Positions 1-7,415 of a stretch of DNA of 7,415 nt are shown here, in pieces; position 1 is the stretch's first letter, and every line of letters begins with the position of its first letter. Under the pieces are notes generated by a model, which was given only the letters and a program-made list of their open reading frames with translations, was not told the origin of the DNA and made no database searches. A program made the position numbers and the translations under genes. The stretch comes from a virus (Monodnaviria > Loebvirae > Hofneiviricota > Faserviricetes > Tubulavirales), in the IMG/VR virus record IMGVR_UViG_2648501390_000001, one strand, 5' to 3'.

Positions 1-2001
<2,001 letters not shown>

Positions 2002-2031: not shown

Positions 2032-2457
2032 ATGAATCAAATTTATGACAGTTTTCCGTTTCCTTCCCCTGAGGGTTTTACCGCAGGTATGACAATGGCG
2101 GGATATTTTATTCACGCCACTGTCATAAATGATGAGGAGTTAAAACCCACGGGTTCTCATTATAACCCTGAGGCCAAACCCAAATATGCCATTGTTATTG
2201 CCTATCCGTATGAGGACCGAAAATTAAAAGTCCGCCGTGAGGAGCATGAGCGATTTTCCTGTACTGAGGAGGATTTTAAATTTTTTAATTCATGTCCTGA
2301 TTTGCAGGGCAAACCTGTTTATCTCACGGTGGATGTTAACTCATGGTCGACAGGCTCTGAACGTCATGGTGTCTGGTATCGTTTTATTTCCGGCTCCATG
2401 AAACGTTTTGACGGTCAGCCGCTGGGTGCACTGCCCGCAGGTAAAGAAAAAGGCTGA
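2032..2457 (+). CDS. Hypothetical protein in the gV position (possible ssDNA-binding protein), 141 aa
   Basis: ATG at 2032 preceded by GAGGAG (2018..2023) at 8-nt spacing, starting 30 nt after the initiator stop. The functional call rests on synteny only; I see no convincing sequence similarity to M13 gVp (87 aa). Confidence 0.6.
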   Translation: MNQIYDSFPFPSPEGFTAGMTMAGYFIHATVINDEELKPTGSHYNPEAKPKYAIVIAYPYEDRKLKVRREEHERFSCTEEDFKFFNSCPDLQGKPVYLTVDVNSWSTGSERHGVWYRFISGSMKRFDGQPLGALPAGKEKG

Positions 2458-2461
2458 TGAT

Positions 2462-2602
2462 ATGTCTGACGCTGATTTTCTGAACTTTGTTTTATTTGCT
2501 GCGCCTGCAATGATTTTATTTTCTTCAGGTTTTGGCATCGGAATAAAACTGATTCGCGCCTGTGACTCACAAAGCATTACTGTTCAGCGTTATTATGACT
2601 GA
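2462..2602 (+). CDS. Small hydrophobic virion protein (gVII/gIX-like minor coat protein), 46 aa
   Basis: ATG at 2462, 4 nt after the preceding stop. It encodes one predicted transmembrane helix (FLNFVLFAAPAMILFSSGFGIGI). Size and position match Ff gVII. The six-frame track's start at 2408 would overlap the upstream gene by 50 nt, so I prefer the in-frame ATG at 2462. Confidence 0.55.
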   Translation: MSDADFLNFVLFAAPAMILFSSGFGIGIKLIRACDSQSITVQRYYD

Positions 2603-2765
2603 ATTTGATTTCAGCGGTGTTTTATCCGCACTGAATTCTGGCGTACAGGACGGGGAGCTTTACTGGGCCGTTCTGTATGTCTGGATTGTCTGCTGGCTTC
2701 TTGGCTTTGGCCTTGGTGTTATTTTCACTCTGGTCTGCCGGATGTTCAGCGATGCTGTTAATTAA
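2595..2765 (+). CDS. Small hydrophobic virion protein (gIX/gVII-like minor coat protein), 56 aa
   Basis: ATG at 2595 overlaps the upstream stop (ATGACTGA, translational coupling). Hydrophobic core YWAVLYVWIVCWLLGFGLGVIFTLV. Position matches Ff gIX, immediately before the major coat gene. Confidence 0.55.
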   Translation: MTEFDFSGVLSALNSGVQDGELYWAVLYVWIVCWLLGFGLGVIFTLVCRMFSDAVN

Positions 2766-2771
2766 TTTTAA

Positions 2772-3032
<261 letters not shown>

Positions 3033-3074: not shown

Positions 3075-4358
3075 ATGCCAGGAGTGTTTTGCTTGATTCG
3101 TTTTATTATTTCGCTTCTGTTTTTGTTCTTTTCTTCGCTTTCTTTTGCTGAGGAGAAAGAAGATCCGGATAAGCTTGTTCAGTGTTTTGGCCGTTTCAAC
3201 TGCAGAACAGCTTATTCAGATGCGGGAGCATCGATTAAATTAGCCAGGGGAGCTGGTCATATTTATTGTGGTTCCAGTGGTTACGACGCGTGCTCCGGAA
3301 TAATTCATTATTGCGGTAGTAAGCTATCAGACTCGTCTAGCGCGCCTTCCACCGTTGGGGTTTTTGTCCATGCCCGGTGGTCCGCATATAAAGTCTGGGA
3401 TTTAGAGAAGCGAGAGTGGGAAACCTGCACTCTTGATTTTCAGGGTGGTGAGGGGGATTTGACACCTGAATATAATAAGCCGCCAACTGACGAGATTTGT
3501 CTTTCTCGTCCGGTTCTTGATGGTATGACTTTTCCTGGTGTTTATAAAGGTGATGACGGGACCCGTTATGTTAATGTGCAGGGGTGTATTTATGAGGCAA
3601 CCGGCAATCCTTTTATTTGTAATCCCGATGATGATACGGTTTGTACTGCCAACTGGAAACCAGTTGCTGTAGATCCTGCATTCTCCGATGATAAGGAGGA
3701 TGGCGGTAGCTCAGGTGGTGGCAGTTCCGGTGGTGGTAACTCAGGCGGCGGCAGCTCAGGTGGTGGCAGCTCAGGTGGTGGCAGTTCTGGCGGTGGTGGT
3801 AACTCAGGCGGTGGCAGCTCAGGTGGTGGTAACTCAGGCGGCGGCAGCTCAGGTGGTGGTAACTCAGGCGGTGGCAGTTCCTCCGGCGATGGCTGGCTTG
3901 GTGATATTCTTGGCTGGTTGCAGCGTATTTGGGTTTCAGTGAATGATTTGAATAGTTTCTTTTCTTTTTCTCAGGCTGATGTAAATAATTCACTGAATAC
4001 TTTTGATGACCAGCTGTCTGATATTGTTAAAAATGAATCGGGTGATTCATCAAATGATTATGATTCTTTAACCTCTCAGTTTATTGATAAGCTACCTAAG
4101 GAGTGGTTATTTATTGATTTCGACAAGTTATTTTTTCCTGGTAATCATCGTTCTGATGGGGCTCAGCCACTTGAGGTTGATTTTTCATTTTATCTTCCGG
4201 TGATTGGGACTGTACATTTTACAGTTGACACATCCGATTTTTCATCAGCTTATGATTTGTTGTTAAGGCCTGTTCTGGAATATTTTATTTATGCACTTAC
4301 TGTTTTTCGTCTTTATTTTGTTTACCGTCGCGCCCTGATGCGTCATGCTGAGGTTTAG
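3075..4358 (+). CDS. gIII: Adsorption / minor coat protein (gIII-like), 427 aa
   Basis: N-terminal signal peptide (probable cleavage after SLSFA), Cys-rich N-terminal domains, an approximately 60-aa Gly/Ser/Asn linker, and a C-terminal domain ending in a hydrophobic anchor (LEYFIYALTVFRLYFVY) plus basic tail. This is the pIII architecture. ATG 3075 has no Shine-Dalgarno because it abuts the terminator T-tract; an in-frame TTG at 3093 has AGGAG (3080..3084) 8 nt upstream and would give a textbook signal peptide, so the true start may be 3093. Confidence 0.88.
   Translation: MPGVFCLIRFIISLLFLFFSSLSFAEEKEDPDKLVQCFGRFNCRTAYSDAGASIKLARGAGHIYCGSSGYDACSGIIHYCGSKLSDSSSAPSTVGVFVHARWSAYKVWDLEKREWETCTLDFQGGEGDLTPEYNKPPTDEICLSRPVLDGMTFPGVYKGDDGTRYVNVQGCIYEATGNPFICNPDDDTVCTANWKPVAVDPAFSDDKEDGGSSGGGSSGGGNSGGGSSGGGSSGGGSSGGGGNSGGGSSGGGNSGGGSSGGGNSGGGSSSGDGWLGDILGWLQRIWVSVNDLNSFFSFSQADVNNSLNTFDDQLSDIVKNESGDSSNDYDSLTSQFIDKLPKEWLFIDFDKLFFPGNHRSDGAQPLEVDFSFYLPVIGTVHFTVDTSDFSSAYDLLLRPVLEYFIYALTVFRLYFVYRRALMRHAEV
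3702..3885 (+). repeat. Tandem near-identical 15-nt (5-codon) repeats encoding the (S/N)SGGG linker of gIII, about 11 units
   Basis: Alternating units AGCTCAGGTGGTGGC and AACTCAGGCGGCGGC (with variants) read directly in the sequence; translated as GGSSGGGSSGGGNSGGG... The repeat also produces the artefactual ORFs 3613..3993 (-) and 3688..3942 (+). Confidence 0.9.
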
Positions 4359-4360
4359 TT

Positions 4361-4723
4361 ATGGTTGTTTTTATTAATTTCATTTATTCTTTTGTGCTTA
4401 TTATTTTCAGGAGGCTGCTACCTTTCCTCAGAAATAAGTTTCCTTCTGCTTTTTCTTATGCGGGTACATTAACGTATCTTTTTATGTCGATTTCTCTTGC
4501 TGTAAGTTTTATTATTGCAGCAAACTCTGTTATTGATACTGTTTCTTCTTCTGCTGTTATGAACAGGTACCTTATTATTGCGTTCAGCTATTTACCCCAT
4601 AACTTTACATTTTGCGCAAATCTCATTATCGCCGCTGATTTTATTTCTTTTCTTTTTCACTCAAAGGAACGTATTTATCGATATATTCGCTTGTTTATAT
4701 CAGGGAAAATACCGGGAGGCTAA
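4361..4723 (+). CDS. gVI: Minor coat protein (gVI-like), 120 aa, polytopic hydrophobic
   Basis: ATG 4361 lies 2 nt after the gIII stop, with GAGG 7 nt upstream. Very hydrophobic 120-aa product with several predicted transmembrane segments; size (M13 pVI is 112 aa) and position after gIII fit. Confidence 0.75.
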   Translation: MVVFINFIYSFVLIIFRRLLPFLRNKFPSAFSYAGTLTYLFMSISLAVSFIIAANSVIDTVSSSAVMNRYLIIAFSYLPHNFTFCANLIIAADFISFLFHSKERIYRYIRLFISGKIPGG

Positions 4724-5938
<1,215 letters not shown>

Positions 5939-6018: not shown

Positions 6019-7272
<1,254 letters not shown>

Positions 7273-7325
7273 GTGCCGACCGGGATTATCAGGACGCGGC
7301 ATCTCAGTTTACCCACCACAACGTC

Positions 7326-7353
7326 AGTGCGCATAATGTATATTATGTTAAAT
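7326..7353 (+). other. dif: dif-like XerC/XerD recombination site (prophage attachment junction)
   Basis: AGTGCGCATAA-TGTATA-TTATGTTAAAT matches the E. coli dif 28-mer (GGTGCGCATAA TGTATA TTATGTTAAAT, from memory) at 27 of 28 positions; the only difference is the first base of the XerC arm. Lies 53 bp downstream of the gIV stop. Confidence 0.8.
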
Positions 7354-7415
7354 TGAATTTGAGTGATGCGAAGCGATTTTCCGGTCGTCGTTATTACTTC
7401 AGGGTTCCAGAACAT

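What the first reader, a model, noticed from the sequence alone, without database searches (positions are those of the whole stretch)
7273..7415. dif-like site directly after gIV: an XerCD-integrated filamentous prophage with no integrase
A 28-bp site with the XerC arm, 6-bp central region and XerD arm of E. coli dif (27/28 as I remember the canonical site) sits 53 bp after the last phage gene, and no integrase or recombinase is encoded in the window. That is the signature of phages that hijack host XerCD (CTXphi in Vibrio; CUS-1 and Ypf in enterobacteria, as I recall). The single mismatch is at the outer end of the XerC arm, so this could be a phage-derived attP half or a hybrid attL/attR rather than the pristine chromosomal dif. 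That matters because only one junction of such prophages normally retains a resolution-competent dif.
Basis: partly seen in the sequence, partly recalled or inferred. Interest (0 to 1): 0.7.

Follow-up and report, generated by a model that had tools for sequence, protein, structure and literature searches.

The report
Filamentous prophage's dif junction (attR)
The 28-bp site is the right-hand junction of a filamentous prophage that inserted at the E. coli chromosome-dimer resolution site (dif) using the host XerC/XerD enzymes; this is a well-known strategy (CTXphi, CUS-1, Ypf), seen here in a phage lineage I found no description of.

Summary
Window 7326-7353 reads AGTGCGCATAA-TGTATA-TTATGTTAAAT, which is 27/28 of E. 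coli dif. It lies 53 bp after the secretin (gIV) stop, and no shuffle of the window reproduces it. The window holds a complete inovirus gene set (P2-GpA-type Rep, pIII, pVI, pI/Zot, pIV) and no recombinase.

Near-identical prophages in E. coli genomes lie between hipA and the ydeT fimbrial genes, often as tandem arrays. Their copy-to-copy junctions reveal the phage attP: two inverted dif-like sites with 11-nt and 5-nt central regions. These fold in the + strand into a roughly 98-nt hairpin (-40.9 kcal/mol, z = -11), as in CTXphi and CUS-1.

All five hipA-side junctions read host GGTGCGCATAA plus phage centre. Every internal junction and every terminal site reads phage AGTGCGCATAA. The window site is therefore a hybrid attR: phage XerC arm, host central region and XerD arm. 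It is the only resolution-competent dif in the array.

The A at position 1 is also a natural dif allele, found at empty sites in about 343 of 5,426 genomes. The phage is not the CUS-1/Ypf lineage; it shares only a homologous attP module and a 43%-identical pIV.

Verdict: interpretation supported; a new member of a known kind; modest interest.

The parts
1..2001 (+). Rolling-circle replication initiator, 666 aa, P2 GpA-type ('replication endonuclease')
   Evidence: Pfam PF05840 Phage_GPA E=6e-49; PHROG 91 'nicking at origin of replication' E=7e-129. RefSeq relatives are annotated 'replication endonuclease'.
2032..2457 (+). 141-aa conserved phage protein of unknown role (its position suggests a ssDNA-binding/pV analogue; inference only)
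   Evidence: PHROG 30648, full length, E=2e-95, unknown function; no Pfam hit.
2462..3032 (+). Three small ORFs (46, 56 and 80 aa) with hydrophobic stretches: candidate minor and major coat proteins. The 80-aa ORF at 2790-3032 starts with a signal-peptide-like N-terminus.
   Evidence: ORF list and translations. The same three genes are called in all relatives. The function is inferred from position and size, not tested.
3075..4358 (+). pIII-like attachment protein (427 aa) with a Gly/Ser-rich linker repeat at 3701-3880
   Evidence: Pfam Phage_Coat_A E=1e-8; PHROG 4150/8482 virion structural/attachment protein. Tandem 15/30/93-nt repeat. Length varies among relatives: 385, 400, 430, 440 aa.
4361..4723 (+). 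pVI-like minor coat protein (120 aa)
   Evidence: PHROG 1944 E=2e-7; conserved position between pIII and pI.
4727..5938 (+). pI/Zot-type assembly ATPase (403 aa)
   Evidence: Pfam Zot E=3e-9; PHROG 1675 'morphogenesis (protein I of M13)' E=9e-50. Best match to any INPHARED phage is only 31-35% identity.
6049..7272 (+). pIV secretin (407 aa), the last phage gene
   Evidence: Pfam Secretin E=1e-24; PHROG 1012 'assembly (protein IV of M13)' E=2e-113. 43% identical to the CUS-1 secretin of UTI89.
7273..7325 (+). Phage non-coding DNA leading into attP; in the free phage it is followed by the attP hairpin
   Evidence: Identical to the sequence that precedes the inter-copy junction in AST205 and other arrays ('...caccacaacgtc').
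7326..7336 (+). XerC-binding arm AGTGCGCATAA of attR, phage-derived (A at position 1)
   Evidence: All phage-preceded junctions carry A1; all five hipA-side attL junctions carry G1. Empty sites with the window's right flank start matching at query position 2, i.e. they differ at position 1.
7337..7342 (+). 6-bp central region TGTATA. TGT is shared by attP and dif, so the crossover lies within 7327-7339; ATA is host.
   Evidence: Four-way alignment of attR, inter-copy junction, attL and empty site. The shared core is GTGCGCATAATGT, and the sequences diverge after TGT.
7343..7353 (+). XerD-binding arm TTATGTTAAAT, host-derived
   Evidence: Identical to dif at empty sites. The phage's own XerD arm reads TTATGTTGAAA.
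7354..7415 (+). Host chromosome, terminus region on the ydeT/fimbrial side of dif
   Evidence: A 98.9% match (query 2-90) contiguous with an uninterrupted dif in prophage-free strain XDL.

Best explanation
Window 7326-7353 is the attR junction of a CTXphi/CUS-1-type IMEX (an integrative mobile element exploiting Xer recombination). The element is a roughly 8-8.6 kb filamentous phage with no recombinase of its own, inserted at the E. coli dif site by host XerC/XerD.

In the free phage, the 53 nt after gIV run into two inverted dif-like sites. Site 1 is AGTGCGCATAA-TGTGACACGCG-TTATGTTGAAA. Site 2, read as its reverse complement, is AGTGCGCACAA-TGACG-TTATGTATAAA. In the packaged + strand the two sites pair into a hairpin whose stem presents one XerC arm and one XerD arm.

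XerC cuts after ...CATAA in both the hairpin and dif and swaps one pair of strands. Only the TGT next to the XerC arm is shared between the two central regions. Replication then resolves the pseudo-Holliday junction.

The product is: host XerC arm + phage centre/hairpin (attL), then the phage genome, then phage XerC arm + host TGTATA + host XerD arm (attR). attR remains a working dif. It keeps resolving chromosome dimers and accepts further insertions, which produces arrays.

Shown here: the site, its location at dif, the junction composition, the hairpin in relatives, the arrays, and the absence of a recombinase. Inferred by analogy with CTXphi: Xer dependence, XerC-only catalysis, ssDNA as the substrate, irreversibility, and phage production from tandem copies.
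For: The site and its significance rest. The inovirus gene set without a recombinase rests. Location at dif is shown by hipBA on the left and ydeT/fimbrial or LysR genes on the right in relatives, and by empty sites in XDL and ATCC 8739.

The four-way alignment places the crossover inside GTGCGCATAATGT. Junction census: 5/5 hipA-side junctions are G1 + TGTGACACGCG...; all internal junctions and all terminal sites are A1 preceded by phage DNA. One contig (L040) shows attL, an internal junction and attR together.

The hairpin folds at -40.9 kcal/mol, z = -11, with 0/200 shuffles as stable. The same architecture occurs in CUS-1 of UTI89 (z = -8.3), in a satellite element (z = -9.1) and in Enterobacter adelaidei (z = -8.0). 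The consensus fold has 39 pairs, 2 of them with compensatory changes at the outer XerC arm.

The 11-nt and 5-nt central regions mirror CTXphi attP1 (12 bp) and attP2 (5-7 bp), and CUS-1/Ypf are listed as CTX-class members (PMC4246890; PMC3089051; PMC4266046). Tandem copies are common: the attP module occurs in 83 genomes at 193 places, median 2 and maximum 10 per genome.
Against: The window itself lacks the hairpin, attL and the regulatory region. These are inferred from relatives that are 98.4-98.6% identical, and the window's own contig could not be found.

Junction sequences alone cannot distinguish ssDNA-hairpin integration from dsDNA integration through site 1.

The hairpin is so conserved that covariation support is thin: 2 compensatory pairs, and in attL sequences the outer top-strand base is host-derived.

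A at position 1 is also a natural host allele, so for this particular window the phage origin of the XerC arm rests on flank-matched comparisons, not on its own attL.

There is no experimental evidence of Xer dependence for this lineage.
Confidence: 0.88

Rival explanations
1. VGJphi-type integration. The double-stranded replicative form recombines with dif through site 1 alone (XerC strand exchange, resolved by replication). The element would then be excisable, and the inverted site 2 would be irrelevant or merely part of a terminator.
For: This route predicts the same attL/attR composition as observed. The inner stem GGCCGCTGCG...CGCAGCGGCC followed by TTTTT looks like an intrinsic terminator after gIV, which could explain part of the inverted repeat.
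Against: In site 1 the XerC and XerD arms are 11 nt apart, against 6 in dif and 7 in VGJ attP. For CTXphi, the equivalent 12-bp attP1 is reported unsuitable as a duplex substrate (PMC4246890). The inverted repeat extends well beyond a terminator stem to cover complete XerC and XerD arms, and it is conserved in three otherwise unrelated elements.
Confidence: 0.08
2. The 28-mer is simply the untouched native dif of a host carrying the A1 allele. The phage arrived beside it by some other route, such as homologous recombination with a resident element, or the IS110-family recombinase seen in sister phages.
For: AGTGCGCATAATGTATATTATGTTAAAT is the native dif at empty sites in ATCC 8739, and about 343 genomes are identical over 74 nt. 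Sister phages with the same backbone do use a different module and a different locus.
Against: Phage DNA abuts the site at exactly the position where the phage's own XerC arm begins in inter-copy junctions. Empty sites sharing the window's right flank differ at position 1. IS110-type relatives have no dif after gIV, and their homology ends at the gIV stop. No recombinase is present in the window.
Confidence: 0.03
3. Chance resemblance of AT-rich intergenic DNA to dif.
For: None beyond the AT-richness of the site.
Against: 0/200 shuffles give any match at up to 3 mismatches. The site and its right flank are contiguous with the chromosomal dif locus in hundreds of genomes.
Confidence: 0

Closest known systems
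CTXphi of Vibrio cholerae (class 1 IMEX; ssDNA hairpin attP(+), XerC-only strand exchange)
   Same: No integrase. Two inverted dif-like sites with a long (11 vs 12) and a short (5 vs 5-7) central region. Central-region identity to dif only next to the XerC arm (TGT). A functional dif is regenerated at the 3' end. Tandem and mixed arrays with satellite elements.
   Different: Different host and dif sequence. The arms are about 40 nt apart rather than about 90. Rep is P2 GpA-type (PF05840) rather than RstA-type. It encodes its own secretin. No toxin cargo is seen in the window. The mechanism has not been tested experimentally for this phage.
CUS-1 (E. coli O18:K1:H7) and YpfPhi (Yersinia pestis)
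   Same: Enterobacterial filamentous prophages at dif next to hipA. The attP hairpin module is homologous: XerD arm plus inner stem TTATGTTGAAAAGGCCGCTGCG is identical, the same 11-nt/5-nt spacing is kept, and site 2 has the same centre TGACG. An intact dif lies at the 3' end, and tandem copies are reported for Ypf (PMC4266046).
   Different: The proteins are unrelated except pIV (43% aa) and a short C-terminal stretch of pI. CUS-1 has a 350-aa II/X-family Rep, a DUF2523 pVI and a 341-aa Zot, and there is no nucleotide similarity outside dif. The CUS-1 phage XerC arm has G at position 1; this lineage has A, with the paired base changed to match.
UPphi phages (Lineavirus-like, dif-integrated, Enterobacterales)
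   Same: dif-integrated filamentous prophages of E. coli found as tandem repeats, with reverse-oriented small ORFs next to the att site and a Gly-rich variable pIII linker (PMC7307601).
   Different: UPphi core genes are about 70% aa identical to IKe/I2-2. Here pI is only about 31% identical to f1 and below 60% to every INPHARED phage, and Rep is a different family.
VGJphi- and TLCphi-type IMEX
   Same: Host XerCD exploited at dif; no integrase.
   Different: Those use a single duplex attP, with a roughly 7-bp centre (VGJ) or a degenerate XerD arm with XerD-first exchange (TLC) (PMC4246890). Here there are two inverted sites, an 11-nt spacer in site 1 and a good XerD arm.

Membership tests
E. 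coli dif (XerCD chromosome dimer resolution site) | 28 bp: 11-bp XerC arm, 6-bp central region, 11-bp XerD arm matching GGTGCGCATAA TGTATA TTATGTTAAAT | tested here: met
   27/28, with the mismatch at position 1. The exact A1 28-mer is the sole dif at prophage-free sites in ATCC 8739 and about 343 other genomes.
E. coli dif (XerCD chromosome dimer resolution site) | Located in the replication terminus between hipA and the ydeT fimbrial cluster | tested here: met
   The right flank 7354-7415 is contiguous with dif in empty-site genomes. Relatives have hipBA on the left of the array.
E. coli dif (XerCD chromosome dimer resolution site) | Supports FtsK-dependent XerCD dimer resolution | not testable with these tools
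   Inferred only, from identity to a natural allele that serves as the only dif in many strains.
CTXphi-type IMEX (ssDNA hairpin attP) | Element integrated at dif and encoding no recombinase | tested here: met
   (window). In relatives, the remaining 1.2 kb has only three ORFs of 60-82 aa, and there is no integrase in the flanks.
CTXphi-type IMEX (ssDNA hairpin attP) | Two inverted dif-like sites in the phage genome that can pair in the + strand into a stem carrying XerC and XerD arms | tested here: met
   Found in inter-copy junctions of relatives, not inside the window: L001 6878-6972; fold -40.9 kcal/mol, z = -11. Conserved in three unrelated elements.
CTXphi-type IMEX (ssDNA hairpin attP) | Neither duplex site is a good substrate (over-long or incompatible centre), and homology to dif is limited to the XerC side | tested here: met
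   Site 1 centre is 11 nt, TGTGACACGCG (TGT shared with dif). Site 2 centre is 5 nt, TGACG. Compare CTX attP1/attP2.
CTXphi-type IMEX (ssDNA hairpin attP) | attL = host XerC arm + phage centre; attR = phage XerC arm + host centre + host XerD arm (functional dif regenerated) | tested here: met
   5/5 attL are G1 + phage centre; all attR are A1 + TGTATA TTATGTTAAAT.
CTXphi-type IMEX (ssDNA hairpin attP) | Integration needs XerC and XerD, with XerC catalysis only and ssDNA as substrate; irreversible | not testable with these tools
   Requires genetics or biochemistry.
CUS-1 / YpfPhi phage lineage | Near-identical genome (CUS-1 and Ypf share 99% nt over 7.1 kb) with II/X-family Rep, puvA-type pIII and DUF2523 pVI | tested here: not met
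   Against CUS-1 in UTI89 (L026): only pIV at 43% aa and a 63-aa stretch of pI; no nucleotide similarity except the 29 nt at dif.
CUS-1 / YpfPhi phage lineage | Shared attP hairpin module | tested here: met
   Alignment A2: arms and inner stem nearly invariant, same spacing.
UPphi / Lineavirus | About 70% aa identity of core genes to IKe/I2-2 | tested here: not met
   pI is below 60% identical to every phage in INPHARED, best 34.6%, about 31% to f1. The whole window finds nothing by megablast.
VGJphi-type IMEX | Single duplex attP with arms separated by about 7 bp | tested here: not met
   11-nt spacer in site 1 and a second inverted site.
Inovirus (filamentous phage) | pI/Zot ATPase, pIV secretin or host secretin use, pIII/pVI/small coat genes, and a rolling-circle Rep in one orientation within about 6-9 kb | tested here: met
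   Unit length from tandem periods is 7,897-8,578 bp.

The most novel reading that the evidence does not exclude
The attP hairpin behaves as a portable integration cassette. The same ~100-nt module is attached to at least three unrelated replicons at E. coli dif: this GpA-Rep phage, CUS-1, and small Rep-only satellite-like elements. On this very phage backbone, the cassette plus its regulators is swapped cleanly (gIV stop to Rep start) for an IS110-family 'RNA-guided' recombinase that places the phage at the hcxB-ybiB intergenic site. Both versions co-reside in the same strains. If this is right, the lineage is a natural paired system for comparing host-Xer and bridge-recombinase-type integration of a ssDNA phage.
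Probability: 0.55. Interest if true: 0.45.

Novelty: new member of a known kind. Interest (0 to 1): 0.3.

Why it matters
dif-integrating filamentous phages shape the terminus region of pathogens and can carry virulence cargo; CTXphi is the standard example. This analysis shows that E. coli holds a further inovirus lineage, which I found no description of, that uses the CTX/CUS-1 hairpin strategy. It builds multi-element arrays at dif, analogous to the TLC-CTX-RS1 arrays of V. cholerae. For annotation, it gives exact phage/host boundaries and shows that the terminal site should still work as dif. It does not change what is known about Xer-mediated integration.

Tried and rejected
- **Phage database, DNA.** Megablast of the whole window against INPHARED phages found nothing.
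- **Species representatives.** The search for related loci with pI against GTDB species representatives found no relative.
- **Hairpin pattern scan.** A degenerate hairpin pattern scanned over genome contigs returned only Enterobacter adelaidei. It did not retrieve Y. pestis, so YpfPhi itself was not compared directly; CUS-1 in UTI89 was used instead.
- **CUS-1 paper.** The Gonzalez 2002 CUS-1 paper is not held.
- **Window's own contig.** The look-up by the exact pIII protein found nothing, so attL upstream of nt 1 could not be checked in the same genome.
- **A1 as a phage signature.** I first took A at position 1 as diagnostic of phage origin. I rejected that once the prophage-free ATCC 8739 site showed the same base and 343 genomes matched that empty site exactly. 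The argument now rests on junction context.
- **Satellite element.** I considered that the small element beside the phage in E300010 might be CUS-1. It is not: its close matches are ~3-kb, Rep-only copies and none is a full-length CUS-1-type prophage (UTI89 CUS-1 examined separately).
- **Bridge RNA.** An Rfam search of the IS110 region for a known RNA family found nothing.
- **Literature.** Searches found no paper describing this lineage.

Full report
**1. Observation**

Window 7326-7353 on the + strand reads AGTGCGCATAA TGTATA TTATGTTAAAT. It matches the E. coli K-12 dif site GGTGCGCATAATGTATATTATGTTAAAT (as tabulated in PMC2731167) at 27 of 28 positions. The only difference is position 1, at the outer end of the XerC arm. 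It is the only match in the window at up to 3 mismatches, and none of 200 dinucleotide-preserving shuffles produced a match.

**2. What surrounds it**

The window is an almost complete filamentous phage. All large ORFs lie on the + strand:

| Coordinates | Product | Support |
|---|---|---|
| 1-2001 | 666-aa P2-GpA-type replication endonuclease | PF05840; PHROG 91 |
| 2032-2457 | 141-aa conserved protein | PHROG 30648 |
| 2462-3032 | three small membrane-type ORFs | ORF calls only |
| 3075-4358 | pIII-like attachment protein | Phage_Coat_A |
| 4361-4723 | pVI-like protein | PHROG 1944 |
| 4727-5938 | pI/Zot | Pfam Zot; PHROG 1675 |
| 6049-7272 | pIV secretin | Pfam Secretin; PHROG 1012 |

The pIII gene carries a Gly/Ser repeat at 3701-3880. 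Nothing resembles an integrase.

The whole window finds nothing among 50,697 deposited phage genomes by megablast. Its pI is at most 35% identical to any of them. Nineteen complete E. coli genomes carry the element over at least 80% of its length, at up to 98.6% identity. Exact copies of the window's pI and pIV are on record in many assemblies.

**3. Location**

In relatives the element lies between hipBA and the ydeT/fimbrial cluster or a LysR-type island, which is the E. coli dif locus. The window's last 62 nt (7354-7415) are contiguous with an uninterrupted dif in prophage-free strain XDL. They are therefore host DNA.

**4. The phage attachment site**

Many genomes carry two or three head-to-tail copies. 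Unit lengths are 7,897-8,578 bp. The copy-to-copy junction shows what follows gIV in the phage genome:

...caccacaacgtc AGTGCGCATAA TGTGACACGCG TTATGTTGAAA AGGCCGCTGCG-(11-nt loop)-CGCAGCGGCCT TTTTATACATAA CGTCA TTGTGCGCACT

This is two inverted dif-like sites. Site 1 has an 11-nt central region. Site 2, read as its reverse complement, is AGTGCGCACAA-TGACG-TTATGTATAAA, with a 5-nt central region.

As single-stranded DNA the + strand folds into a hairpin of -40.9 kcal/mol (shuffles -14.2 +/- 2.4; z = -11). In that fold:
- the XerC arm is fully paired, with one T-G pair;
- the XerD arm is paired, with one bulge and one G-T pair;
- the centre is 5 bp plus a 6-nt bulge on the top strand.

This is the CTXphi design. 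There, attP1 (12-bp centre) and attP2 (5-7-bp centre) are inverted and fold in the + ssDNA into the real substrate. XerC alone exchanges one strand pair, and replication finishes the job (PMC4246890; PMC3089051). CUS-1 and Ypf are listed as members of that class, and Ypf is described as having inverted XerC/XerD sites and an intact dif at its 3' end (PMC4266046).

The remaining ~1.2 kb between the hairpin and Rep encodes only three minus-strand ORFs of 60-82 aa. Two of them are paralogous, and none is a recombinase.

**5. Test of the predicted junctions**

XerC cleavage after ...CATAA on the strand that reads 5'-XerC arm-centre-3' makes two predictions:
- attL = host XerC arm + phage centre + hairpin;
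- attR = phage XerC arm + host TGTATA + host XerD arm.

A four-way alignment of the window attR, an inter-copy junction, an attL and an empty site shows exactly this. The shared core is GTGCGCATAATGT.

Across ten loci the pattern holds. All five hipA-side junctions read GGTGCGCATAA+TGTGACACGCG. Every internal junction, and every terminal site, reads AGTGCGCATAA preceded by phage DNA. Contig L040 shows attL (G1), an internal junction (A1) and the terminal A1-dif together.

In each array only the terminal site lies within 3 mismatches of dif. The window site is thus a hybrid attR. Its coordinates divide as follows:

| Coordinates | Origin |
|---|---|
| 7273-7336 | phage |
| 7327-7339 | ambiguous: shared crossover core |
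| 7340-7415 | host |

**6. A correction**

The A at position 1 is not in itself a phage signature. The prophage-free ATCC 8739 site has the same 28-mer. In addition, 343 of 5,426 complete genomes are 100% identical to that empty site over 74 nt. One attL (L011) has a host A1 arm. Two things follow. The phage origin of the arm must be argued from context, as in section 5. The A1 site is very probably a fully working dif, because it is the only one in many strains.

**7. Relation to CUS-1, Ypf and UPphi**

I located CUS-1 in UTI89 next to hipA. Its attL reads GGTGCGCATAA TGTACGACTCG TTATGTTGAAA AGGCCGCTGCG...CGCAGCGGCCT CTTTAGCATAA CGTCA TTGTGCGAACC, and its attR is a perfect dif.

The attP module is clearly homologous to the one here (alignment A2). 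It folds equally well (z = -8.3). The outermost XerC-arm pair covaries: A-T here, G-C in CUS-1.

The proteins, however, are unrelated, except pIV (43% aa) and a short stretch of pI. CUS-1 also uses a 350-aa II/X-family Rep. UPphi phages are about 70% identical to IKe (PMC7307601), which this phage is not.

So the window works like CUS-1/CTXphi but is not a member of the CUS-1/Ypf or UPphi lineages. A diverged copy of the same hairpin also occurs in Enterobacter adelaidei.

**8. Mechanism: shown and inferred**

Shown:
- the site and its location at dif;
- absence of a recombinase;
- the hairpin in relatives;
- junction composition;
- arrays.

Inferred from CTXphi:
- dependence on XerC and XerD;
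- catalysis by XerC only;
- ssDNA as the substrate;
- resolution by replication;
- irreversibility;
- production of new ssDNA by Rep-driven rolling-circle replication across tandem copies.

A further inference concerns transcription. The inner GC-rich stem followed by a T-run probably also terminates gIV transcription in the free phage. In the last prophage copy that stem is left at attL, and no terminator-like site remains between gIV and dif in the window.

**9. Rivals**

Duplex (VGJ-type) integration through site 1 would give the same junctions. It is disfavoured by the 11-nt spacer and by the conserved second site. The reading of a native dif with the phage placed there by other means is contradicted by the junction census and by flank-matched empty sites. 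Chance is excluded.

**10. Verdict**

The phenomenon is well known. What is new is the lineage: a GpA-Rep inovirus absent from the phage collection searched, for which my literature searches found no description. Interest is modest. The more intriguing material is peripheral: the modular exchange of integration systems, and the mixed IMEX arrays.

Noticed in passing
L003 4832-5995 and 13403-14400 (NZ_AP041805.1); also L027, L028: A sister phage with the same Rep-to-gIV backbone (94-96% nt) is not at dif. It sits between hcxB and ybiB/dinG. The module from gIV stop to Rep start (attP hairpin plus small regulators) is replaced by a DUF2726 gene and an IS110-family 'RNA-guided transposase' gene abutting Rep. 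The transposase-Rep junction occurs in 30 of 5,426 genomes, and it was at the same locus in 3/3 inspected. Several strains (AST205, E300010, 700481, TD225-C4, E100341) carry both the dif-type and the IS110-type phage. Rfam found no known RNA in the region.
   Followed up: partly
L002 3868-6876; L030 11278-18400; L032 11278-19125: dif arrays contain other Xer-exploiting elements stacked with this phage. These include ~3-3.5 kb Rep-only 'satellite-like' units (Rep_trans/Phage_CRI Rep, DNA-binding protein, small ORFs, no morphogenesis genes) and a CUS-1-like complete phage. Each is bounded by the same AGTGCGCATAA-TGTGACACGCG junction. The arrangement resembles the TLC/CTX/RS1 arrays of V. cholerae. 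The small element occurs in about 105 genomes.
   Followed up: partly
L006 2501-2528 (ATCC 8739) and 343 other genomes: E. coli dif is polymorphic at position 1. AGTGCGC... occurs at uninterrupted hipA-dif-ydeT sites in about 6% of complete genomes, alongside the textbook GGTGCGC....
   Followed up: partly
window 3701-3880: There is a Gly/Ser-rich 15/30/93-nt tandem repeat in the pIII linker. pIII length varies among otherwise near-identical relatives (385, 400, 427, 430, 440 aa), and this is the most divergent part of the phage.
   Followed up: partly
L001 7140-7180 and 7670-7710 (regulatory region, outside the window): A ~35-nt direct repeat (cttcgtatcgataggtaactatgatgttattttttt) follows two of the three small minus-strand ORFs. 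Two of those ORFs are paralogous (…SEVVHFMIKNYL / …SEIVNHLIDNYL). They may be duplicated repressor/operator units.
   Followed up: no
one search hits H136, H141 (plasmids NZ_CP078136.1, NZ_CP173491.1): Five copies of the attP hairpin module lie on plasmids rather than chromosomes. This suggests integration into plasmid Xer sites, or plasmid-borne phage DNA.
   Followed up: no
L024 3275-3375 (-) (Enterobacter adelaidei NZ_CP154353.1): There is a diverged version of the same hairpin (GGTGCGCATAA TGTAGCACGCG TTATGTTGAAC ... TGACG ... GGTTCGCATAA), next to ORFs that do not match the window's proteins. The att module is therefore present outside Escherichia.
   Followed up: partly
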